This document shows positions 2,998 through 13,657 of a stretch of 13,657 nucleotides of DNA, in pieces (the stretch's first letter is position 1; every line of letters begins with the position of its first letter). Source of the DNA: Candidatus Eiseniibacteriota bacterium. Lineage in GTDB: Bacteria; ARS69. The translations under genes were made by a program, and so were the position numbers. The notes under the pieces were generated by a model that was not told the DNA's origin, did not search any database, and was given only the letters and a program-made list of their open reading frames with translations. The stretch spans positions 1-13,657 of the forward strand of contig JBQTGV010000192.1 of NCBI GenBank assembly GCA_052390515.1, read 5' to 3'.

Positions 2998-3074
<77 letters not shown>

Positions 3075-3080
3075 ATCTCG

Positions 3081-3113
3081 GAGGGCCCGGAAGTCGCGTA
3101 CTTCCGGGCCTTT
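3081..3113 (+). terminator. Probable intrinsic terminator hairpin after the tRNA
   Basis: Perfect 11-bp stem GGCCCGGAAGT (3084-3094) / ACTTCCGGGCC (3100-3110), 5-nt loop, followed by TTT. The U-tract is short. Confidence 0.62.
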
Positions 3114-3364: not shown

Positions 3365-4888
3365 CTACCCCGTTGCCACCCCGAGTTCTTCGCCAATCCG
3401 ATCCACGGCGGTTCCGATTTCCGGCGTGCGCGCAACGAGTCCGATAAGATGGTCACCGTATCGACCTTCGCGGAGCGTATCCGTTGTGTCCCACACTGCG
3501 TCGAGCAACGGCGTGCGTCCCACCGACCAGCGTGAGATGCCAACATACCTGCTAAGTGACGCTTGGCGAAGGAACCTCTCCAACCGCGCGGGCTCGGCGC
3601 CCGCCTGGAAAAGTGAGGCCGCGTATGTGCCGGATCGGTCAAAGAAGACCTCAATCGACCTGTCCTCCCCCTTCCACCCGAAGAGCCGACTGACGATCGG
3701 AGCCAAGTCCATTGACGCAGAGAACACCTCATCTGCTGTAGTGCGGAGTTTCGGATATAGCGGCGCAAGACCATGTGTCACATCCTGAGTGTCGACGGTC
3801 CCATCCGGGAACTCGATGCTGATGCGTAGCTTAGCGCCGTCGACGTCGAGGCGCGCACGAGCGTACGGCCCGAGGCGGTCGTCGTGGACATAGACCTGGT
3901 CGAAGCCGAGGTTCCCGGCTCTGAACTCGACTGAACCCTCCTCCTCCAAGTGAAGCGGGATTCGAGGCAGGTCGGATGCCGCCTCACGGAAGCCCACGAC
4001 GGTAACGGCGTGTCCGTCCCGCTGGCCGGAAGAGATGGCGAGCAGTACTGGAATCCCGGATCGCACGTAGCACTGAAGTAGCAAGAGGAACCAGACGGGA
4101 GCATCCCCGACGCGAAACAGCGCAGGAGGGAACCCGAATCCCCTGAATGCCTCACAGATCTGCTCGATTGTCAGCCCTGACGACGGGAAGGGTCTCCCTT
4201 CCGGGAGATAGTGGCGAACGGCAGCTTCTGTAATCGCTGACGGTGTCGGCGCGCGGCCGCCGTCCCGCCTGCAAACACGCTGCAGCGCCGTCCAGATGGC
4301 CGTCGTCGCGCAAGCACCGACGGCGCGATCCTGCTGCTGGAATGGGACGCCATCGACGGACAGTTCGAACCCCATCAAATGGGCGTGGCTCGCTAGTGTG
4401 GTGGGAAACTGTCGATTCCCGCTGTCGCCGCGCGGTCGGAGAATGGTGCGACCGATCGGAACCGAGGGGATCGGTCGAACCACTATGAATCCCAAATAGT
4501 TCTGCTGCAACCGACTCTGGACTTCATCGAACGAACCCGTCGCGGCCGACCGAATCAACGAGGCCAGTTCCTCGTCGTCGAGCATCTCGGTAAACACATG
4601 GATGCGCGTGCACCAGTTCGGATAGCTACTCAAGCACCGTGAGTAGTAGAGCGCGACCTCCTCGATGAAGTGCCTGTCGATGTAGTGGTCTTCTACGACG
4701 AGTGAGGCCGCATCAAGATCCTCAAGGTACGCTCCGAGGTACTGCGTCTGAACCCCAATGTCAGCACCCGACTCCGTCTCCGCGCCCCTGGCGTGTTGAA
4801 CGACGCGTCGGAACGCATCTGCCGAGAACGGGATGCACCGGACATTGTTCCTCTTTTGTTGCGCGAGGACTTCCTGCCGCACCGTCAC
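3365..4888 (-). CDS. Putative cytoplasmic C39/papain-fold cysteine peptidase-like protein (507 aa)
   Basis: Ordered catalytic-type motifs FQQQDRAVGACATTAIW (Gln/Cys), DGHAVTVVG (His), VYVHDDRLGPY (Asp). GTG start with GAGGGGGG at 4900-4893. No signal peptide. Confidence 0.75.
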   Translation of the reverse strand: MTVRQEVLAQQKRNNVRCIPFSADAFRRVVQHARGAETESGADIGVQTQYLGAYLEDLDAASLVVEDHYIDRHFIEEVALYYSRCLSSYPNWCTRIHVFTEMLDDEELASLIRSAATGSFDEVQSRLQQNYLGFIVVRPIPSVPIGRTILRPRGDSGNRQFPTTLASHAHLMGFELSVDGVPFQQQDRAVGACATTAIWTALQRVCRRDGGRAPTPSAITEAAVRHYLPEGRPFPSSGLTIEQICEAFRGFGFPPALFRVGDAPVWFLLLLQCYVRSGIPVLLAISSGQRDGHAVTVVGFREAASDLPRIPLHLEEEGSVEFRAGNLGFDQVYVHDDRLGPYARARLDVDGAKLRISIEFPDGTVDTQDVTHGLAPLYPKLRTTADEVFSASMDLAPIVSRLFGWKGEDRSIEVFFDRSGTYAASLFQAGAEPARLERFLRQASLSRYVGISRWSVGRTPLLDAVWDTTDTLREGRYGDHLIGLVARTPEIGTAVDRIGEELGVATG

Positions 4889-4898
4889 CGCGCCCCCC

Positions 4899-5078
4899 TC
4901 ATCTAAGTCGGACCTTCACGTCGCGCTCCTCGATGCGAAGAAGCGGATCGAGGGTCTTGCTGACGACGCGACGCAATTGGCGGCCTTCCGCGAGTAGCTC
5001 ACGAATGCGCTCTGCGTCGACCCGGTCCTTGCGATGCTCGGGTCTCTCTTCGTGGGGCCTCTCTCCTGTGCCTCGCAT
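4899..5078 (-). CDS. Small charged hypothetical protein (59 aa), first gene of a two-gene operon with the peptidase
   Basis: ATG at 5078 preceded by AGGAGAGG (5090-5083). MRGTGERPHEERPEHRKDRVDAERIRELLAEGRQLRRVVSKTLDPLLRIEERDVKVRLR. Its TGA overlaps the RBS of the peptidase, which starts 10 nt later. Confidence 0.6.
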   Translation of the reverse strand: MRGTGERPHEERPEHRKDRVDAERIRELLAEGRQLRRVVSKTLDPLLRIEERDVKVRLR

Positions 5079-5337
5079 GACACCTCTCCTCGGCGAAACC
5101 AACGTCCAAAACCCGCAACCAATGAGGTTGACCGGGTTTCAAAGCTGGAACCCGCATTACCGACAAGGAAACGGTACGCGTCCGATCACGCGCCGACGAA
5201 CCCCGTTGGACAGGGCCATACGCCGCTGAGTGCGCCGCAGACCCTTTCCCGGAGGATGGGGGTTCTTGCTTCATACACAGACGGCTTCCCTTATGACGAG
5301 AAGCGGCCCGCTAACCAAGGCGGGCGTAGAGTGGCCC

Positions 5338-5372
5338 GAAACCGGTAACCTGTCAAGAGGATACCCGGTTTC
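5338..5372. promoter_or_regulatory. Imperfect inverted repeat enclosing a minus-strand TTGACA (possible operator/promoter)
   Basis: GAAACCGGTAACCT-GTCAAG-AGGATACCCGGTTTC. TGTCAA at 5351-5356 reads TTGACA toward the small ORF/peptidase operon, but the -10 at 17 bp (CACTCT) is poor. Confidence 0.3.
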
Positions 5373-5405
5373 CACAGTTCCCCTGGCCCATCTGACAATC
5401 GCCGA

Positions 5406-5486
5406 TCACGCGACGAACCACGCCGGCCGTTCGGTCGCGCCTTCCGCCCACGTCTGTAGCGCATCGAGCAGCTCGCCGCGCTCAGC
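5406..5486 (-). pseudogene. Degenerate third copy of the TerL C-terminal coding segment
   Basis: AERGELLDALQTWAEGATERP aligns without gaps to ADHDDLFDALQTMVEGAIERP of copy 2 (13/21 identical by hand count), then AWFVA*. Confidence 0.55.
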
Positions 5487-5530
5487 GCCGACTGGGTCGG
5501 AAGCACGGGGAACCGTCTGAAAGAGTCGGG

Positions 5531-5719
5531 CTAGAAGCGACCCCACCACCGCCACGCCCACGGCATCGCGTCGGGGGCTGGGGCGTCGATGAAGATGAAC
5601 CCGCAGGACCCCGGCCGCTCGATGGCGCCCTCGACCATGGTCTGAAGCGCGTCGAAGAGATCGTCGTGGTCCGCGTTCGGGAACAGCACCAGCTCGTCCT
5701 GCAGCGCCATGTACGCGTC
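5531..5719 (-). pseudogene. Orphan second copy of the TerL 3' end (in-frame, own stop, different tail)
   Basis: 5624-5719 aligns ungapped to 5941-6036 with 80/96 identical nt (hand count). DAYMALQDELVLFPNADHDDLFDALQTMVEGA vs EAYTALQDELILFPNADHDDLIDGLQTAVEGA. Ends ...MPWAWRWWGRF*. Confidence 0.85.
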
Positions 5720-5726
5720 GAAGTGA

Positions 5727-5822
5727 CTGGGCTTGAATCCTACCGCTCGTTGGCAAGTCCCCGATGGTACCGTCCCCGTGGGGGCATCCAGCTTCGGCGC
5801 GATCAAGGCGGGCTACAAGTAG
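5727..5822 (+). pseudogene. 3' remnant of a probable secreted-protein gene ending in a PV..SS(W/F)GxIKxxY(R/K) C-terminal motif
   Basis: Reads LGLNPTARWQVPDGTVPVGASSFGAIKAGYK* (TAG 5820-5822), bounded upstream by TGA at 5724 next to the point where TerL copy-2 homology ends. Motif recognised from memory. Confidence 0.5.
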
Positions 5823-5828
5823 CCGCCT
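5806..5828. terminator. Hairpin spanning the convergent stops of terL and the plus-strand remnant
   Basis: AGGCGG(G)CTAC-AA-GTAGCCGCCT, near-perfect inverted repeat with one bulge. No clear U-tract. Confidence 0.35.
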
Positions 5829-7356
5829 ACCGCCCCCAGAACGGCCACGTGATGCGGTGGCGAGCCCACGGGTAGGGATCGTATTCCTCCACGGGGTCCG
5901 CACCGAAGATCCACACCCCGCACTCACCCGACCGGTCGAAGGCTCCCTCCACCGCCGTCTGAAGTCCGTCGATCAGGTCGTCGTGATCCGCATTCGGGAA
6001 CAGGATCAGCTCGTCCTGCAGCGCCGTGTACGCCTCCCGGTCGAGCTGCAGGTGCGGCGCCGGGAAGAGGATCTGCCCGTTCTCGAAGTAGCCCTGCAGG
6101 TCGTAGGCGCGCGACACCTTGTCCTTCGTCCGCTTGAGCCGCTTCACGCTCATCAGCTTCTCCAGGTCCTGCGCCAGGTACTCCTGCGCCGCCACGTCCT
6201 CCACGATCACCCGCCGCGGCTGGTAGCGCTCGTTCATGGCCACCAGTCGATTGACGTACTCCTGCTTGGCCACGCGGCCCCGCCAGACCTCCCGGATGAA
6301 GACCTCGCGTCCCAAGCCACCCGAGGCATCCTCCTCCTTGCGCCGCGCGCCCACCACGATGGTCCACCAGTCGGTCTCCGCCTTCCTCCCGGAGAGCACC
6401 ACCTCGGCCTTCGTCGCCGCCGGGTCGCAGCCGATCCAGTGCTCGAAGAGCTCCCACTCCTGCTGCTCCTCGTAGTAGCGGAACCACGCTTCGCGGAAGA
6501 TGTCGCCCTTCATCAGCTCCACGTCGTTCTGGTACTGGGTGGCGAAGATGGCCGAGCCCATCTGCCGGCGGCGCTCCTCCAACCACTCGATGCTGAACTT
6601 CTCCGGCCAGGGCGTCGCACCGTCCGAGTCGATGGCCCGGATCACCTGGTGCCGTTCCTCGAACTCGTTCTTGATCAGGTGCCCGTAGAGATCGAGGTAG
6701 TGGTAGCGCGTGCCGACGAGGAAGAGCCGGCCCTCCGGCTCGAGACACGGCAGCAGCGTCTTGTAGTACCAGGTCCGCACCTTCTCGCGCTGTCCCTCGG
6801 TGCGCGCGTTCTCCTCGTCCACCAGGTCGTCCGCGATAATCAGGTCGTAGTGGCGCGACGCCACCGGACCACCGACGCCGACACAGGTGACCGTCGCCTC
6901 CTTGGCGGAGGAGGTGCGCGGCTTCACCAGGATCTCGCGCGCGTCCCACTTGGACTCGTCCTCGTAGCGCCCGAAGGCGGCGATCAGCCGCTCGTTCACG
7001 CCTAAGTGGAACTTGATCTCGCGCAGGAACACCTCGGCCTGGAGCTGCGTGTTGGACGCGATGAGGACGCGGATGTTCGGGTTGCGCAGGATCTCGAAGA
7101 CCGCGCGCGCGATGGTCAGGATCGTCGACTTGCCGTAGCCGCGGGGCGCGAGCTGCAGGCAAGCGTCCTTGGTGCTCTCCTGGAAGGCGAGCATCTCGGC
7201 GTGGAAGGGGCGAAGCTCGTAGCGGAGGATCGAAGTCGCGAGGAGATCGATGCGGCCCTCATCGAGGACCTCGCGGCGGAGCACCTCGCGGCGGAGGGAG
7301 CGGAGCTTGGCGAGGGACTCGGCCACCGCTTGCTGGTCGCCAGCGAGCATGCTCAC
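5827..7356 (-). CDS. terL: Phage terminase large subunit (Terminase_6-like ATPase + RNase H-fold nuclease, 509 aa)
   Basis: Walker A APRGYGKST, Walker B DLIIADD, coupling motif VGTRYH, linker WPEKFSIEWLEERRRQMGSAIFATQYQN, nuclease motifs IGCDPA, VIVED and FPNADHDDLID. GTG start overlaps the upstream stop (GTGA); ATG at 7350 is an alternative. Confidence 0.92.
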   Translation of the reverse strand: MSMLAGDQQAVAESLAKLRSLRREVLRREVLDEGRIDLLATSILRYELRPFHAEMLAFQESTKDACLQLAPRGYGKSTILTIARAVFEILRNPNIRVLIASNTQLQAEVFLREIKFHLGVNERLIAAFGRYEDESKWDAREILVKPRTSSAKEATVTCVGVGGPVASRHYDLIIADDLVDEENARTEGQREKVRTWYYKTLLPCLEPEGRLFLVGTRYHYLDLYGHLIKNEFEERHQVIRAIDSDGATPWPEKFSIEWLEERRRQMGSAIFATQYQNDVELMKGDIFREAWFRYYEEQQEWELFEHWIGCDPAATKAEVVLSGRKAETDWWTIVVGARRKEEDASGGLGREVFIREVWRGRVAKQEYVNRLVAMNERYQPRRVIVEDVAAQEYLAQDLEKLMSVKRLKRTKDKVSRAYDLQGYFENGQILFPAPHLQLDREAYTALQDELILFPNADHDDLIDGLQTAVEGAFDRSGECGVWIFGADPVEEYDPYPWARHRITWPFWGR

Positions 7357-8108
7357 GGCATCATCACCGCGCCGCCAAGCGCAAGATCCTCGTCGTGGAA
7401 CCGCGCGATGAGACCTGTGAAGTAGTCGTTCCCCTCACCCGGCCAGGTCACCGTGCCGAGAACCTGGACGATCCACCCGATGCGTGCAGGCGCTTCACCC
7501 GTGAGATCACCGGCACGTCTTGGAACGGCACTCCACGACACCCAGCGCGGTCGCAACACGATCTGCCCTGCCTTCGCCGGATCGCCTATGTGGGACCAGT
7601 AGCTGCCCAGGACCTGCGGGATGCTCGACCTGAGCGACAAGGTGTCAAGGCGGTGGTAGCTCCACCCGAACTCGCGGGCCTGCTCCTCGGGATCCCGTGC
7701 CGCAATCCCTGGCTTGACCCACTCCGCCTTCGGACTCGTGAACGCGAGGATCAGGCGTCCGTCCGTCGCGTCGATCACGACGTGCAGGGTGGCGTACCAC
7801 GTCGCCGCGCCGCGAAGGGGCTCCACGCAGACGGACGGTGCAGTCGCGAGCCACGCGCCGCGCTCCTTCGACTCCCCGAACGGATGGCGATCGGACACCG
7901 TGGCCAAAGTGAGAGTCATGTCGGAGCTGCCCAGCAGCCCCAGGTGCTCCGTCGCGAGGAGCCGTGCTTCCAGCGAATCGATCTCGGTCGGGCCAGCCAA
8001 GGGCTCCCAGGAGACTGGACTGTCCGCGGGGATCTGGGCGAATGCCGAGTGCGCGGGAGCGCTCACGGACCAAACAGCAAGCAGGATTGCCGCGCGAGTG
8101 CTGCTCAT
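7353..8108 (-). CDS. Hypothetical secreted protein (about 251 aa), possibly PepSY-like
   Basis: From ATG 8108: MSSTRAAILLAVWSVSAPAHSAFA|QIP resembles a Sec signal peptide; internal VVIDATDGRLI resembles the PepSY VDAxTGxIL motif. The track's extension to 8420 is Arg/Pro-rich and probably not translated. Confidence 0.62.
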   Translation of the reverse strand: MSSTRAAILLAVWSVSAPAHSAFAQIPADSPVSWEPLAGPTEIDSLEARLLATEHLGLLGSSDMTLTLATVSDRHPFGESKERGAWLATAPSVCVEPLRGAATWYATLHVVIDATDGRLILAFTSPKAEWVKPGIAARDPEEQAREFGWSYHRLDTLSLRSSIPQVLGSYWSHIGDPAKAGQIVLRPRWVSWSAVPRRAGDLTGEAPARIGWIVQVLGTVTWPGEGNDYFTGLIARFHDEDLALGGAVMMP

Positions 8109-8702
8109 CGGAGTCGCCGGTTTCTGTCCGCCCACCATAGCCCGCCATTGGGATCTCCGCTCGGGGACTCGGCGAGGTCGCCGGGCTCGCGGCCGGGCAT
8201 GTGCGGCTGGGCCGGACGCGGGGAGGAAGGGAGGGAAGGGAAGTGACCGCCGCACGCGCCTCGCCAAGACTCGCCGCGAGGCGATGCACCGTGAGATCGG
8301 CGAGGCGGGGGCCGAGTCCCCGGGGCGGCCGGCGCTCTCCGGCTTGGCGAGCGCCCCGAGGCAACGGGTCCGCCTGCCCCCGCCCGCGATCGCCCGCCAC
8401 AACGCCTCTCTCGCTGCCACAGGGGCCCTTCTGGGCCGATCACTAGGCGCCTGTCTGGTAGTCTAGAACCACCCCCGGCCTCCGTCCATCCTTAGCTCCC
8501 CGCTCCTTGAACTGAACCGACGGCCCGTGGGACGGTCCGCCTCCCGGGCTCTGGCCGGAGACCTGCCGTCCCCCATCTGCATCGACACCGGGCGCGAGGC
8601 CCGTGTCCCGGCCGGAAGCCCGGAGGCCCTTCCGATTTCGCTTCATCTCAGCCCCCCACCAGAGCGTGCATGGTCCTCCCCCTCAACCCAGGGAGGAATC
8701 CC

Positions 8703-9014
8703 ATGCGCTTCCGAACCCACGACCGCTTCTGGGGCGTCGTCAACCCGACCCCCAACTCGATCCTTTCCGACGTCGTCTTCGAGTCCAGCCTTGCCGGACT
8801 CAAGCTCCAGTTCGACGGCGGCCTCTCACTCGACGCCGAGCCCACCCTCTACGACACCGAAGAAGCGGCACGCCGCGACGCCACCGCACGGCTCCTCGCA
8901 GCCAAGCTCGCCCGCGGCATCGCCGCCACACCACACGACCTCTCCCACGTCCGGAAGGCCCAGCTCTTCGACCGCGAGGGACGCCTCCAGGCCGAGATCG
9001 AGGTGTCCTCATGA
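8703..9014 (+). CDS. Hypothetical protein (103 aa) coupled to the XerC-like gene
   Basis: GGGAGGAA RBS at 8691-8698, ATG 8703, strong GC3 codon bias, ATGA overlap with the next gene. No family recognised. Confidence 0.75.
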   Translation: MRFRTHDRFWGVVNPTPNSILSDVVFESSLAGLKLQFDGGLSLDAEPTLYDTEEAARRDATARLLAAKLARGIAATPHDLSHVRKAQLFDREGRLQAEIEVSS

Positions 9015-9896
9015 GGCTCGCCACCGCCGCCCGCCGCTTCCTCACCCAGCTCGAGGCCGACGGGGAAGAGCCCGCTGACGCTGCGCGTGTACCGCGGGGA
9101 GCTGGACCGCTTCCTGCGCTTCGCAGGCGGCCGGAGCCACGCCGAGAGTTGTCCGACCCGAGGCCATCGCCAACTACCTGACGTCGCCGGCTACTCGCGT
9201 TTCGCCGGATGGAACCGCGCGTTCCACGAGAACCGTGAACCGCACGAGGACGGTGCTCCGGCTCTTCTTCGGCTACCTCGTGGAGCGGGGAACGCTCCGG
9301 CACTCGCCGGCGAGGCTGCTGCGGAACGGGAGGACGGGACCGTCCGGTGCCGACCGTGCTCAGCAAGAACGAGGAACGCAGGCTGCTGCGCGCGCTGGAT
9401 GTTGCGGCAGAGGAGAGCGACGTCGGCCGCCGTGACCGCGTGCTGTTCACTCTGCTGCTCAAAGTCAGGGATGAGGCTCGCCGCGGCGCTGGCACTCGAC
9501 GTCGCGGACCTCAATCTCGGCGAGGGCAGCGCGGTCAGCCACGGGAAGCATGCGCGCGTGCAGACCGTGTACTTCCCCAAGGGCGTCGTTCTCCTGCTGC
9601 GGCGACACTTTCGGGACGAGGGCGCCCGCACGTCCGGCGCCGTCTTCCGGAGTTCACGGGGCTGCCAGCTCTCAGCGAGGCAGGCGCAGTACCGGTTTGG
9701 GGCCGCGGTGGAGCTCGCGGGAATCGATCGGCCGGTCACCGTCCACGCGCTTCGGCACACATTCGCCACGAGGTTGAGAGAGGAGACCGGCGACTTGCGA
9801 GTGGTTCAGGCCGCGCTCGGACACCGACAGCTTGGCACCACGGAAGTCTACGCGCTCGTCGCGGACTCGGACGTCCGGCGCGCGATCGTGGGATAA
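9011..9896 (+). pseudogene. XerC/XerD-like tyrosine recombinase with four apparent +1 frameshifts (pseudogene or sequence error)
   Basis: Stitching frames gives MRLATAARRFLTQLEADG-KSPLTLRVYRGELDRF...TVNRTRTVLRLFFGYLVERG...SPA...VPTVLSKNEERRLL...RDRVLFTLLLK-SGMRLAAALAL...HGKH...HALRHTFAT...LGHRQLGTTEVY (about 293 aa). Extra bases near 9062-9065, 9144-9150, 9336-9338 and 9461-9463. Confidence 0.85.
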
Positions 9897-11020
9897 AGCT
9901 CGACGGCATCCACCAACGCCACGGCAGGGGCGGGCGGCTGGTCCGGCTCCAGCAGCCGAATCGCCGACTCCTTCGCCGCCGGACTCAGGTGCATGTACCT
10001 CTGCGTGGTGATCAGCTCCGAGTGCCCGGCCAGCTCTTGAACCGCCTTCGCAGGCGCACCCCGCATCGCCAAGTGCGAGCAGAACGTGTGCCTCAGCGCG
10101 TGCACGCCCAGGTGATCGAGGTTGGCGAGCCGCTCGGCCCGCTCCACTTGCCGTTGCACGTCATGCTGGTTCAGAAAACGGCCCGTGCGGTGACACAGCA
10201 CCCGCCTGCTCCGCAGGTGACGGTGCGCGGCAAGCGCCGCCGCCAGCCGCGTCGTCATGGGGATGATCCGCGGCTTCCCGCTCTTCGGCGTCGAGACGTG
10301 CCGGTTCCAGACGGAACGGGCCACGCGTAGCTGGCGGCGCTCCTGATCGATGTCGGTCCACTCCAGCCCGATCATCTCGCCGCAGCGGAGCCCGGCCTCG
10401 CCGCCGAGCAGCACGATCACGTAGGCCCGAGGGTCAACGCGTCTCGCGGCGGCCACCAGCCGCTCGTACTCGTGGAAGTCGTGGAAGCGCATCTCGGGGT
10501 GCACGCGCTTCAGCAGCTTGATCGTGCACGGCATCTTCTCGATGACACCCCACTCTATCGCCACCTTGAGCAGCTTCGAGAGCACGCAGAGAATGTTGTT
10601 CACGGTCGCGGGCTGGGCCTTTGCGAGCTTCATCTTGATCCCTTGCACGTCCTCGTTGCCGATCTCTTCGAGTCGCTTCCTGCCGAGCAGCGGGATCAGG
10701 TGGTTGCGGAGGACGCTCTGCTTGCTCGAGATGCCGCTCGGTTTGAGACGGTTGGCTCGCGCGTAGCCGTCGATGAAGCGCGGCGCGAACTCGGCGAGCG
10801 TCGGCACGTCCGGCGCCTCCGGCTCGGGCGCCGCCTCCAGAGCGTCCGAGGCCACAGCCCGGAGCAGGAGTTCTCGCTGCAGGGCCTCCCCCCAACGCAA
10901 AGCCGCGGAGCGGGTGCGGCCCGGCGCGACGCGTCGCTCGCGCACACGCGTTCCGTCAGGGAGGTAGAAGTGGATGTCCACTTCGAACTTCCCGCGGAAG
11001 GGTCGGACCTTGAGACTCAC
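9848..11020 (-). CDS. int: Phage-type tyrosine integrase (390 aa)
   Basis: N-terminal arm-binding-like region, core-binding region (LRNHLIPLLGRKRLEEI..DVQ, PATVNNIL) and catalytic motifs AGLRCGE, TPKSG, HALRHTFCS, LAGH, TQRY. Confidence 0.95.
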   Translation of the reverse strand: MSLKVRPFRGKFEVDIHFYLPDGTRVRERRVAPGRTRSAALRWGEALQRELLLRAVASDALEAAPEPEAPDVPTLAEFAPRFIDGYARANRLKPSGISSKQSVLRNHLIPLLGRKRLEEIGNEDVQGIKMKLAKAQPATVNNILCVLSKLLKVAIEWGVIEKMPCTIKLLKRVHPEMRFHDFHEYERLVAAARRVDPRAYVIVLLGGEAGLRCGEMIGLEWTDIDQERRQLRVARSVWNRHVSTPKSGKPRIIPMTTRLAAALAAHRHLRSRRVLCHRTGRFLNQHDVQRQVERAERLANLDHLGVHALRHTFCSHLAMRGAPAKAVQELAGHSELITTQRYMHLSPAAKESAIRLLEPDQPPAPAVALVDAVELYPTIARRTSESATSA

Positions 11021-11217
11021 GTGCGTCCCCCAGCTTCGCCGAGGCCGAGCCAGTCCAAGACGTCGTCTCTCCGGAGCAGCAGGCGGCGCCCAATCCTCAC
11101 GACACCGGGGAGTTGCGCGCGCTCAGCCATCGCGTAGATCGCCTTGGGCGAGGTGCGCAGGAGCCGCGCCGCGTCCTTCGCGGTCAGGAGGGGCGGGAAG
11201 GCTTCAGCCTCGGACAT
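11017..11217 (-). CDS. Excisionase-like helix-turn-helix protein (HTH_17 type, 66 aa)
   Basis: MSEAEAFPPLLTAKDAARLLRTSPKAIYAMAERAQLPGVVRIGRRLLLRRDDVLDWL; GGAGG upstream of ATG 11217; GTGA overlap with int. Confidence 0.87.
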   Translation of the reverse strand: MSEAEAFPPLLTAKDAARLLRTSPKAIYAMAERAQLPGVVRIGRRLLLRRDDVLDWLGLGEAGGRT

Positions 11218-11523
11218 GCCGGGCCTCCGCCACGCCGCCTTCCGCTCGGGCTCCGTTGCGCCACCCGCCGCCAACCATCACCGCTCGGCCCAGCCCCCCA
11301 ATCAAGCGAGGAGGAGTCACCGGCGCGACTTCTTGGCCACGCTGTTGCGGCACGCTTCGCCTCTGTGGCTCACAGGTAGGGGAGGTGGGCCCGCGGCCCG
11401 GTTCCATGCGAGCACGGCCCATCGACGAAGTAGTGCTAGGGTCCCTCGGTTCGCCAGAAGTCCCCCCGGCCGCTTTCGAGGACGCCGGTCCTCCACACCT
11501 GTCACTCGCAAGGAGAGCCGCTG

Positions 11524-12594: not shown

Positions 12595-13657
12595 ATGAGC
12601 GCGGCTCTGCTGGAGGCGATCCGACCCCACCTCCGCGAGATGAGGAGTGCCCCGGACGGCCGGCTGATCTGCTGGTGCCCCTTCCACGCCGATGGCGAGG
12701 GTGCCCCTCCCCACACGCCGAACCTCTACGTCTCGGAGAGGGGGTTCATCTGCCACGCTTGCGGCGAGAAGGGCAGCCTGCGAGGTCTCGCAGAGCACCT
12801 CGGCGTCGAGCTACCGCCGCGCGAGGAGCGACTCGATGCGGTCTACGACTATCTCGACGAGAAGGGCGCGCTCCTCTTCCAGGTGGTGCGGAAGCCCGGG
12901 AAGAGGTTCAGGCAGCGCCAGACGGACGGTCAGGGCCAGTGGCTCTGGAACCTCAAGGGCGTTCGCCGTGTCCTCTACCTGCTTCCTGACCTGCTCGCCC
13001 GTCCCGACGAGCCCGTCTACGTCGTCGAGGGCGAGAAGGACGCCGACCGACTCGCCGCTCTCGGCCTCGTGGCCACGACCAACTCCGGCGGCGCCGGCAA
13101 GTGGAGGACGGAGTACTCACACACCCTGGAGGGCCGCGACGTCGTCATCCTCCCCGACAACGACGAGCCGGGACGAAAGCACGGCGACACGGTCGCCACG
13201 TCTCTTCGTGGCGTCGCCCGCTCCATCAAGGTAGTCGAGCTACCCGGTCTCCCCGCTAAAGGCGATGTCTCGGACTGGTTGAACTCCGGTCATACGAGGG
13301 AAGAGCTCCTGCAGCGCGTCGCCGAAGGCGCTGGATGGACGCCGCCCGAAGGCGAAGAGCCCGACACCTCGGAGTCCGACGACAACAGGGAACGAGACTC
13401 CGTGGCGAAGCAGCTCGTGTCGCTCTTCCTCGCTTCGGGGGCGGAGCTCTTCCGGGACGAGCGCGGCGAACCCTACGCACGCATCGAGACGCAGGAAGGC
13501 AAACGAATCCTGCCGGTTGGCTCGAAGCAGCTCCGACTCAAGCTCTTCCACCTCGCTTGGGCCGAGATGGACAAGGCGCTTACCGGCGAGGTGGTGCGTA
13601 CCGCGGCAAACATCCTCGACAGCATCGCGCGGTTCGAGGCCCCGCAGCACACGCTCC
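12595..13657 (+). CDS. DNA primase (CHC2 zinc finger + TOPRIM), probably fused to a helicase; runs off the right edge
   Basis: Absent from the ORF track (no stop). From ATG 12595: MSAALLEAIRPHLREMRSAPDGRLICWCPFHADG...FICHACGEKG (Zn finger), YDYLDEKGALLFQVVR, VYVVEGEKDAD, ILPDNDEPG (TOPRIM E and DxD), KGDVSDW, acidic linker, then ELFRDERGEPYARI... starting a further domain. Confidence 0.92.
   Translation, partial: MSAALLEAIRPHLREMRSAPDGRLICWCPFHADGEGAPPHTPNLYVSERGFICHACGEKGSLRGLAEHLGVELPPREERLDAVYDYLDEKGALLFQVVRKPGKRFRQRQTDGQGQWLWNLKGVRRVLYLLPDLLARPDEPVYVVEGEKDADRLAALGLVATTNSGGAGKWRTEYSHTLEGRDVVILPDNDEPGRKHGDTVATSLRGVARSIKVVELPGLPAKGDVSDWLNSGHTREELLQRVAEGAGWTPPEGEEPDTSESDDNRERDSVAKQLVSLFLASGAELFRDERGEPYARIETQEGKRILPVGSKQLRLKLFHLAWAEMDKALTGEVVRTAANILDSIARFEAPQHTL

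What the first reader, a model, noticed from the sequence alone, without database searches (positions are those of the whole stretch)
5406..6036. terL followed by two orphan, diverged copies of its own 3' end with different tails: candidate tail-swapping cassettes
Seen: the segment around the last nuclease motif (FPNADHDD..D.LQT..EGA) occurs three times in the same orientation within about 630 bp. Copy 2 matches terL at 80/96 nt with mostly synonymous or conservative changes and an open frame, so it looks like the end of a homologous terL once under selection rather than a decayed local duplicate. The tails differ but share a Trp-rich end (YPWARHRITWPFWGR vs MPWAWRWWGRF). Copy 3 is much more degenerate. 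Established: in lambda and phage 21 the extreme C-terminus of TerL sets prohead/portal specificity. Inference: recombination through the 96-bp homology would replace the tail, which could let an element lacking its own capsid genes change helper capsid. Simpler alternative: scars of successive related elements collapsed by deletion. Copy 2 also has an ATG at 5710 that could yield a 59-aa tail-only peptide, although no clear RBS is present.
Basis: partly seen in the sequence, partly recalled or inferred. Interest (0 to 1): 0.78.

Follow-up and report, generated by a model that had tools for sequence, protein, structure and literature searches.

The report
Leftover terminase gene ends beside terL
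A phage-type DNA-packaging gene (terL) in an integrated mobile element is followed by two decaying leftover copies of its own end, which look like scars of repeated gene replacement rather than a built-in system for swapping the protein's tail.

Summary
terL (5827-7356, minus strand) is followed, on the same strand, by two orphan copies of its 3' end. Copy 2 (5531-5722) matches at 97 of 120 nt. Copy 3 (about 5406-5490) matches copy 2 at 49 of 68 nt and has lost the HDD catalytic motif. Both are far beyond chance.

Such orphans recur in this TerL clade: 5 of 12 loci with at least 1 kb downstream have them, against 0 of 17 loci of phage-type relatives. They lie 60 nt to 5 kb from terL, sometimes with cargo genes in between, and some lie far from any terL.

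The clade descends from ordinary phage terL genes, which have a portal gene next door. Here terL sits in small integrase/primase elements with no detectable portal or capsid gene, and TerL tails vary strongly.

Best reading (0.55): scars of successive one-sided recombination that replaced terL, or its end plus downstream cargo. Copy 2 came from another functional allele.

Programmed tail swapping from these copies is not supported. The longest exact match is 19 nt, the copies decay with distance, no 317-nt deletion joint was seen, and one relative's repeats all carry the same tail. Part of copy 2 (5619-5728) is not confirmed by independent contigs.

The parts
5827..7356 (-). terL, large terminase subunit, 509 aa, apparently intact
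   Evidence: phrog_38 at 5.6e-93; Terminase_6C over residues 308-468. The Walker A GKST, Walker B DD, and nuclease CDP and HDD columns are invariant in the 6-sequence alignment.
5827..6036 (-). Copy 1: the native 3' end of terL, comprising the last nuclease helix (FPNADHDDLIDGLQTAVEGA) and a 38-aa Trp-rich tail
   Evidence: The tail pattern is conserved in the metagenome homologues P0005 and P0006.
5723..5826 (-). Spacer between the terL stop codon and copy 2; not terL-like; starts with a short hairpin
   Evidence: It has no similarity to the sequence after copy 2 or copy 3. Relatives' contigs match 5770-5822.
5531..5722 (-). Copy 2: orphan terL 3' end (DAYMALQDELVLFPNADHDDLFDALQTMVEGAIERPG... 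and tail ...PWAWRWWGRF*), inside the open frame 5531-5806
   Evidence: dN/dS 0.33. No Pfam or PHROG hit as a stand-alone ORF.
5406..5490 (-). Copy 3: older orphan, closer to copy 2 (72%) than to copy 1 (65%); the HDD motif now reads ERGE
5100..5405 (-). Non-coding stretch between copy 3 and the cargo genes. It folds well (z -4.1) and holds a 21-of-24 nt direct repeat, 5402-5422 and 5182-5205.
   Evidence: repeat score 27, maximum 26 in 300 shuffles. No Rfam hit.
3365..5102 (-). Lower-GC cargo: a 67-aa ORF (4899-5102) and a 507-aa ORF (3365-4888) of a widespread unnamed protein family
   Evidence: GC about 0.61 and GC3 0.71. Atlas feature score 0.99 to clusters of hypothetical proteins. No Pfam, PHROG or NCBIfam hit.
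7353..8420 (-). 355-aa ORF of unknown function whose stop overlaps the terL start
   Evidence: No hit in Pfam, PHROGs, NCBIfam, PADLOC or the Atlas.
9011..9887 (+). Xer-like tyrosine recombinase ('IntB'), broken: it matches intact ~295-aa homologues in three different frames
   Evidence: Intact homologues sit directly upstream of terL and divergent from it in L030, L032, L033, L034 and L036, with a fragment in L029.
9848..11274 (-). Lambda-type integrase ('IntA', 390 aa, 9848-11020) with an HTH/excisionase-like gene (11017-11274)
   Evidence: 67-69% identical to the integrase beside terL in G011.
12595..13656 (+). DNA primase, cut by the contig end
   Evidence: phrog_239 at 1.4e-23.
2998..3074 (+). 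tRNA-Met. It marks the edge of high-GC host DNA (1 to about 3110, GC 0.70-0.75).
   Evidence: No copy of its 3' end occurs elsewhere in the window.

Best explanation
The two orphans are recombination scars.

Setting: terL lies at the edge of the conserved packaging module of a small integrative element that appears to lack capsid genes. The coding sequence for its last nuclease helix (…HDDLFDALQTMVEGA) is the last well-conserved stretch before variable DNA.

Proposed mechanism (inferred): related elements repeatedly replaced terL, or its 3' end plus whatever lay downstream. Each event used one crossover in shared terL sequence and one illegitimate joint. When that joint fell inside the last ~70 codons of the resident terL, the old 3' end survived just downstream of the new complete gene. 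Each new event pushed older ends further away. That would explain why copy 3 is more decayed than copy 2. Long leftovers would be lost through homologous deletion, so mainly short ones persist.

Shown here: the copies are real, they come from distinct functional alleles, they share no flanks, and the same pattern recurs in relatives, sometimes with cargo between the copies.

Inferred: the one-sided recombination mechanism itself, and the idea that the copies have no present function.
For: 1. Recurrence. Orphans in the same orientation occur in 5 of 12 close-clade loci with at least 1 kb downstream: the window, L022, L029, L032 and L034. They occur in 0 of 17 distant-clade loci at E <= 1e-3. 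Within the 12-genome family, one search gave 13 matches. About six are orphans; the one at G006:C113 touches a contig start, so it cannot be classed. Three lie away from any detected terL: G000:C106, G006:C568 and G006:C379. P0008 is a 177-aa terL remnant on a 71-kb contig.
2. The 5' ends of the orphans differ between loci: AYMALQ, QALTDEL, NADHDD, FPQAEHDD, PEHDD, DGLQT and EGAMS. This fits illegitimate joints, not one fixed crossover site.
3. Cargo lies between terL and the orphan in two loci: L022 (5.1 kb, including a C25 peptidase with a T9SS sorting domain) and L032 (a 469-aa ORF). Neither insert holds an integrase.
4. The sequences after the three stop codons in the window are unrelated: 102 of 300, 9 of 300 and 254 of 300 shuffles scored as well. 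So this is not a simple tandem duplication.
5. Copy 2 came from a selected allele.
6. In 7 of 8 pairs of related loci, nucleotide homology across terL stops 36-124 nt before the stop codon. This marks a recombination boundary right after the conserved motif.
7. The clade is monophyletic (100/100), and orphans occur in both of its subclades.
Against: - No donor or 'before' allele was found, so no joint could be reconstructed.
- The recurrence could instead reflect a dedicated mechanism. A Xer-like recombinase gene sits next to terL in 7 loci, 4 of which have orphans.
- In L029 the repeats share identical boundaries and look amplified as a unit with a promoter-like site. That needs duplication or gene conversion, not separate replacements.
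- It is unexplained why some loci have almost nothing between terL and the orphan (window, L034).
- The core of copy 2 (5619-5728) is not bridged by independent contigs.
Confidence: 0.55

Rival explanations
1. Cassette capture at the terL 3' end. Circular DNA carrying a terL-like 3' segment plus cargo inserts into the end of terL, either by a single (Campbell-type) crossover or by a site-specific recombinase such as the neighbouring Xer-like IntB. This rebuilds terL with an incoming tail and displaces the old end downstream, as happens at tRNA genes. Stacks of orphans would then be what remains after the cargo is lost.
For: - The layout terL, cargo, orphan in L022 and L032, and the stacking with age in the window, match the tRNA-island pattern.
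- IntB lies divergent from terL in 7 loci, and 4 of those 7 have orphans. None of the four loci shown to lack IntB next to terL (L023, L024, L025, L031) has one.
- In L029 the repeated unit (terminator-like hairpin, terL fragment, promoter-like site) precedes successive cargo genes.
Against: - No integrase lies inside the L022 or L032 inserts.
- Orphan boundaries differ between loci.
- No direct repeat of 11 nt or more flanks the IntB-terL units.
- No shared core was seen after the stop codons.
- IntB is a pseudogene in the window.
- There is no cargo between the window's copies.
- The counts are small and the loci are related, so the IntB association is weak.
Confidence: 0.15
2. Local tandem duplication of the terL 3' end by slippage or unequal crossing-over, followed by neutral decay of the extra copies.
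For: - The copies are adjacent and in the same orientation, and similarity falls with distance.
- The L029 array is best explained by unit duplication.
- A dN/dS of 0.33 on 23 differences cannot exclude one selected and one neutral lineage.
Against: - The copies share no downstream flanks.
- Copy 2 retains consensus F and M where the live gene has I and A.
- Aligning the translations by eye, the copy 2 tail differs from copy 1 by two in-frame deletions.
- The copy 2 junction matches another allele lineage, P0009/P0010.
- L022 shows no homology beyond the 125-nt repeat despite 5.1 kb of spacing.
Confidence: 0.12
3. Silent tail cassettes. Copies 2 and 3 are kept as donors so that recombination or gene conversion can give TerL a different C-terminal tail, letting an element without capsid genes dock on another helper phage's portal.
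For: - TerL tails are hypervariable in the clade while the flanks stay conserved. In L024, L025 and L031 the variable segments are 54-72, 432 and 104-124 nt.
- The canonical basic-EPGL tail of phage relatives is gone.
- The PWA...W.WG tail type appears on the window TerL, on copy 2 and on L025, which sit in different branches of the tree.
- No portal or capsid gene was detected in the element.
- From memory, not from a call: the extreme C-terminus of lambda gpA sets prohead specificity.
Against: - The longest exact match is 19 nt. From memory, this is below the roughly 23-27 bp needed for efficient RecA recombination in E. coli.
- With direct orientation, a crossover deletes the intervening DNA irreversibly.
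- Copy 3 would destroy the HDD motif.
- The copy 2 tail is only a shortened variant of the same tail type.
- The L029 repeats all encode the same tail.
- No 317-nt deletion joint was listed in contigs of 4 runs.
- There is no start signal for a tail-only peptide.
- Orphans exist far from any terL.
Confidence: 0.06
4. Assembly artefact: strain variants of the terL end were strung together in the MAG contig.
For: - The source-like run has only about 5.8x depth.
- Its contigs break at 5340-5379 and 5618-5729. The second gap is exactly the part of copy 2 that resembles copy 1.
- The genome is a 223-contig MAG.
Against: - The unique spacer is contiguous with terL down to 5729, and the copy 2 tail is contiguous with copy 3. 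An orphan-like sequence must therefore follow the spacer in the reads.
- The copies share no word longer than 19 nt.
- The same architecture appears in independent assemblies: L022, L029, L032, L034 and G000:C106.
Confidence: 0.05

Closest known systems
Partial target-gene duplications at tRNA-linked genomic islands and prophages, including tandem island arrays (described from memory)
   Same: An intact gene is followed by same-strand orphan copies of its 3' end. Older copies lie further away, and cargo DNA sometimes lies between the copies.
   Different: The target here is a protein-coding phage gene. The inserts contain no integrase, no identical core was found, orphan boundaries vary between loci, and two of the window's copies have no cargo between them.
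Mosaic joints and moron insertions in tailed-phage genomes, formed by illegitimate or short-homology recombination at gene boundaries (concept from memory)
   Same: Homology between relatives ends at a gene boundary. Variable cargo with its own promoter-like site follows. Partial duplicates of flanking gene ends remain. L025 shows the mirror case: a 26-nt ParB 5' duplication around a 98-aa ORF.
   Different: The recurrence is unusually high in one clade (5 of 12 loci), the scars are stacked, and orphans are dispersed in the chromosome.
Phage satellites: PICI, cfPICI, P4-like and PLE
   Same: Small integrative elements with an integrase, an excisionase-like HTH, a primase and packaging genes. 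Relatives also carry terS, ParB and a methyltransferase.
   Different: In the passages I read of PMC10085698 and PMC10690885, terL is a core gene only of satellites that also encode capsid and portal proteins, and PICI carry terS only. Here terL, and terS in relatives, occurs without any detected portal or capsid gene. No helper phage is known and encapsidation has not been shown.
Diversity-generating retroelements (template repeat and variable repeat at a gene's 3' end)
   Same: A gene's 3' end is followed by a diverged same-strand copy.
   Different: No reverse transcriptase was found in the window. Only 2 of the 23 mismatches are adenine in copy 2, and 5 in copy 1. The repeated part includes a catalytic motif.
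Silent-cassette and shufflon systems that change a protein's C-terminus (pilE/pilS, Rci shufflon, Mu Gin; from memory)
   Same: Promoterless partial 3' copies lie next to an expressed gene, with a tyrosine recombinase gene nearby.
   Different: The copies are direct, not inverted, and decay instead of being maintained. The recombinase is a pseudogene here, and no recombinant forms were seen.

Membership tests
Large terminase subunit (TerL; Terminase_6C / phrog_38) | N-terminal ATPase with Walker A and B motifs, and a C-terminal RNaseH-like nuclease with catalytic acidic residues | tested here: met
   phrog_38 at 5.6e-93 and Terminase_6C at 2.3e-5, above the cut-off. GKST, DD, CDP and HDD are invariant in alignment A2.
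Large terminase subunit of a complete tailed phage | terL is linked to portal and head genes | tested here: not met
   A portal gene (phrog_12) lies directly after terL in 7 of 7 distant-clade loci tested. None was detected after terL in the 9 close-clade loci whose downstream ORFs were scanned. Three further loci (L034, L036, L039) had no long ORF and were not scanned.
Diversity-generating retroelement | A reverse transcriptase nearby, and mismatches confined to adenines of the template repeat | tested here: not met
   No RT hit in the window. Bases at the mismatches are C11, T5, G5, A2 in copy 2 and G8, C5, A5, T5 in copy 1.
Integrase-mediated insertion with 3'-end duplication (tRNA-island type) | The inserted element carries its own integrase and shares an identical core with the target at both junctions | tested here: not met
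   No integrase in the L022 or L032 inserts. The longest exact identity in the window is 19 nt, inside coding sequence. No common motif follows the stop codons.
Shufflon or invertible C-terminal cassettes | Cassettes in inverted orientation, flanked by recombinase sites, with an active recombinase | tested here: not met
   All copies are direct repeats. IntB is split across three frames.
Silent-cassette gene conversion (pilE/pilS type) | Maintained silent copies with varied segments, and mosaic expressed alleles traceable to them | tested here: inconclusive
   The copies decay (copy 3, and the L034 orphan). No recombinant joint was listed in contigs of 4 runs. Contigs drop rare variants and no raw reads were available.
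Phage satellite (PICI-like in the broad sense) | Integrase, regulator, primase-replicase and a packaging gene; no full structural module; mobilised by a helper phage | tested here: inconclusive
   The gene content fits. The absence of capsid genes rests on negative HMM searches in a poorly known phylum. The element's borders are not defined. Helper phage and encapsidation cannot be tested with these tools.

The most novel reading that the evidence does not exclude
This TerL clade marks an undescribed kind of integrative element that carries a terminase but no capsid genes, and that must use another phage's procapsids. On this reading the C-terminal TerL tail is the exchangeable part that sets helper specificity. 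The terL 3' boundary is an active capture and exchange site for tails and promoter-bearing cargo, possibly served by the adjacent Xer-like recombinase. The orphan ends would be its footprints and occasional donors.
Probability: 0.12. Interest if true: 0.8.

Novelty: new variant of a known kind. Interest (0 to 1): 0.5.

Why it matters
Taken alone, the triple 3' end is most likely a recombination scar, which is a known kind of footprint in mosaic mobile elements.

It leads to something more useful. A monophyletic TerL lineage has left its phage context. It has no portal neighbour and has lost the conserved basic-EPGL tail. It now sits in small integrase/primase elements of a little-known bacterial phylum.

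In this lineage the terL 3' end is a recurrent breakpoint, tails turn over quickly, and host-type secreted-protein genes are picked up just downstream.

If these elements are packaged by helper phages, they would extend the range of known satellite strategies. They would also give a natural system for asking how TerL tails match portals.

Tried and rejected
- DGR: rejected. No RT and no adenine bias.
- Simple tandem duplication: no shared flanks.
- tRNA-Met as the attachment site for the island: no repeat of its 3' end in the window or the genome.
- Direct repeats flanking the IntB-terL unit: none of 11 nt or more in the windows tested, apart from two chance-like 11-mers.
- Common att-like motif after the stop codons of terL and the orphans: none seen by eye.
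- Empty-site search. The L023 flanks mostly hit dispersed T9SS-domain repeats in G007, G010, G004 and G001. The 9 kb downstream of terL in L022 had no match in G004. No element border could be defined.
- Read evidence. Only contigs were available. No 317-nt deletion joint was listed. A joint skipping 5823-5910 in three other runs most likely reflects relatives' diverged tails. A back-joint 6162>5646 at depth 3.8 was too weak to interpret. The gap at 5619-5728 proves nothing either way.
- Function searches for the 355-aa and 507-aa ORFs gave no named family.
- Literature searches gave no report of orphan terL 3' ends or of terL-only satellites. One search listed 13 papers and one search listed 12 of 39. 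I saw only listings, plus passages of two papers, so this is weak evidence that nothing is in print.
- A weak upstream hit in L031 (4628-4849, E 0.001, 30% identity) was not followed up and is not counted as an orphan.
- The R-rich hits in L060 were treated as low complexity.
Full report
**What is in the window**

The window is a whole 13,657-nt contig (C192) of a 223-contig MAG. The MAG's phylum is represented by only 12 genomes in one family.

- Positions 1 to about 3110 look like host DNA, with GC 0.70-0.75. They hold an unnamed 535-aa ORF, an FHA/DUF4388 gene and tRNA-Met at 2998-3074.
- GC then drops to about 0.61 over a 507-aa ORF (3365-4888) and a 67-aa ORF (4899-5102), both on the minus strand and both unnamed.
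- terL is 5827-7356(-), 509 aa. It matches phrog_38 at 5.6e-93 and Terminase_6C over residues 308-468.
- An unknown 355-aa ORF (7353-8420) overlaps the terL start.
- Further along are a Xer-like recombinase that is broken into three frames (9011-9887(+), here called IntB), a lambda-type integrase with an HTH gene (9848-11274(-), here called IntA) and a primase cut by the contig end.

The spacing is 317 nt, and the best match in 200 simulations was 58.

Copy 3 matches copy 2 at 49 of 68 nt, against a maximum of 36 in 1000 simulations. It has lost the HDD motif.

All three copies are on the terL strand.

The differences between copies 1 and 2 fall mostly at third codon positions (13 of 23). dN/dS is 0.33, from Sd 10 and Nd 13. 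These numbers are too small to be decisive.

Three further points support an origin from a selected allele.
- Copy 2 keeps the clade consensus (LFDALQTMVEGA) where the live gene has LIDGLQTAVEGA.
- Its junction GAIERPGSCGF resembles the intact TerLs P0009 and P0010 (GAIERTGEFGF) more than the neighbouring terL, GAFDRSGECGV.
- Aligning the translations by eye, its tail differs from copy 1 by two in-frame deletions.

The tail of the live gene is itself conserved in pattern in the nearest homologues P0005 and P0006. A related tail sits on the L025 TerL. The 'two tails' are therefore variants of one type.

**Is it an assembly artefact?**

Contigs of the best-holding run (about 5.8x depth) cover 4600-5340, 5379-5618 and 5729-7000 at 100% identity. 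The conserved core of copy 2 (5619-5728) is not bridged.

The unique spacer is contiguous with terL, and the copy 2 tail is contiguous with copy 3. The two copies share no word longer than 19 nt. The same architecture occurs in independent assemblies (below). I rate an artefact at about 0.05, but raw reads should settle it.

No joint corresponding to the 317-nt deletion was listed in the contigs of 4 runs. Contigs cannot show rare variants.

**Relatives**

I searched each locus with the last 75 residues of its own TerL. Extra same-strand copies were found in 5 of 12 close-clade loci (56% identity or more) that have at least 1 kb downstream. None was found in 17 distant-clade loci at E <= 1e-3.

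| Locus | Where the orphan lies |
|---|---|
| Window | two stacked orphans, 104 and about 40 nt apart |
| L022 (family genome G009) | a 125-nt repeat at about 85% identity, 5.1 kb downstream; three ORFs between, including a C25 peptidase with a T9SS sorting domain; no integrase |
| L032 | a 50-nt repeat after a 469-aa ORF |
| L034 | a decayed orphan 60 nt after the stop codon |
| L029 | six copies of a ~160-nt unit (see below) |

The L029 unit comprises the last 85 nt of terL plus about 80 nt. A promoter-like site was found in 3 of the units, and a terminator-like hairpin lies just upstream of 3 of them. The units lie mostly in front of genes for secreted proteins with T9SS sorting domains. 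All six encode the same tail.

An HMM of the conserved C-terminal segment gave 13 matches in the 12 family genomes. About six are orphans. They include one on another contig of this MAG (C106:9712-9795, next to an IS21 transposase and methyltransferase fragments) and others in G006. P0008 is a 177-aa terL remnant on a 71-kb contig.

Orphan 5' boundaries differ from locus to locus.

**The element family**

A TerL tree puts the window in a well-supported clade (100/100) on a long branch from phage-type relatives. Orphans occur in both of its subclades.

In the phage-type relatives:
- the gene right after terL is a portal (phrog_12) in 7 of 7 loci tested, followed by head genes;
- 11 of the 16 distant-clade tails (L027, which is intermediate at about 40% identity, is left out) carry an EPG[LIV] motif at or near the C-terminus, usually after a basic stretch.

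In the window's clade:
- no portal was detected after terL in the 9 loci scanned;
- three more loci had no long ORF downstream and were not scanned;
- the neighbours are IntA plus an HTH gene, or IntB (divergent from terL and directly upstream in L030, L032, L033, L034 and L036, with a fragment in L029 and a pseudogene in the window), large serine recombinases, primases, a methyltransferase, ParB and terS;
- tails are heterogeneous.

In 7 of 8 pairs of related loci, nucleotide homology stops 36-124 nt before the terL stop codon. In L024, L025 and L031 it resumes just after the stop.

L025 also has a 26-nt duplicate of the ParB 5' end around an inserted 98-aa ORF. This is the mirror image of the terL orphans.

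In the passages I read, described satellites that carry terL also carry capsid and portal genes, and PICI carry only terS (PMC10085698 and PMC10690885).

**Interpretation**

The end of the conserved nuclease helix is the last shared sequence before variable DNA, and it is a recurrent breakpoint.

The pattern has these features: same strand, downstream position, variable boundaries, decay increasing with distance, unrelated flanks, optional cargo, and an origin from other functional alleles. It fits successive replacements of terL, or of its end plus cargo, with one crossover in homology and one illegitimate joint inside the old gene's last codons. Only short leftovers would be stable. This mechanism is inferred, not shown.

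A dedicated cassette-capture mechanism remains possible (0.15). It would use the adjacent recombinase or a single crossover with circular cassettes. Orphans occur in 4 of 7 loci with IntB, against 0 of the 4 loci shown to lack IntB next to terL. These loci are few and related to one another, no core site was found, and IntB is dead in the window.

Plain tandem duplication (0.12) fits L029 but not the window.

Programmed tail swapping from the orphans (0.06) is disfavoured for these reasons:
- the longest exact match is 19 nt;
- the orientation is direct;
- copy 3 has lost the catalytic motif;
- the L029 repeats carry identical tails;
- there is no start signal for a tail-only peptide.

The broader idea does find support: tails turn over in a clade that appears to lack capsid genes.

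**Verdict**

The feature is real and recurrent. It is a new variant of a known kind, namely recombination scars at a module boundary. The element family it points to is the more interesting lead.

Noticed in passing
window 9011-9887 (+): A Xer-like tyrosine recombinase gene is split over three reading frames (a pseudogene). Intact ~295-aa homologues sit directly upstream of terL and divergent from it in five metagenome loci. This conserved recombinase-terL pair has no known role.
   Followed up: partly
L029 786-940, 3474-3630, 11350-11512, 15665-15830, 18001-18160, 20169-20335: Six copies, 76-87% identical, of a unit made of a terminator-like hairpin, the last 85 nt of terL and a promoter-like site. 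Most precede genes for secreted proteins with T9SS sorting domains. The units are far more alike than the genes they precede (about 42% aa identity).
   Followed up: partly
G000 contig C106, 9712-9795 (+) (locus L076): A third orphan terL end in the same MAG (PEHDDLFDGLHAMVEGAF...), with no terL nearby. It lies between an IS21 transposase pair plus a DUF5677 gene and methyltransferase fragments, an Mrr-like nuclease and a WD40 protein.
   Followed up: partly
L025 (oriented coordinates about 10062-10400): The first ~26 nt of the ParB gene occur twice, flanking an inserted 98-aa ORF right after the terL stop codon. This is a 5'-end counterpart of the terL 3' orphans.
   Followed up: no
window 5100-5420 (-): The non-coding stretch after copy 3 folds better than all 100 shuffles (z -4.1). 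It holds a 21-of-24 nt direct repeat (5402-5422 and 5182-5205) of marginal significance. There is no Rfam match.
   Followed up: partly
window 3365-5102 (-): Lower-GC cargo: a 507-aa ORF belonging to a widespread family of unnamed ~530-aa bacterial proteins (Atlas score 0.99), preceded by a 67-aa ORF. One weak PADLOC hit (PDC-M55B, E 4.5e-4) covers only 50 residues.
   Followed up: partly
window 2998-3110 (+): tRNA-Met followed by a hairpin lies at the point where GC falls from about 0.72 to about 0.61. No repeat of the tRNA's 3' end was found in the contig, so whether it is the island's attachment site is open.
   Followed up: partly
window 9848-9896: The 3' ends of the two convergent integrase genes (IntA, minus strand, and the IntB pseudogene, plus strand) overlap by 49 nt. 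This suggests one element inserted at the very end of the other's recombinase gene.
   Followed up: no
L023 9499-9930 and other segments: Segments of 150-300 nt at the 3' ends of secreted-protein genes recur many times across four genomes of the family, at 67-90% identity. They are probably the coding sequence of the shared T9SS sorting domain.
   Followed up: no
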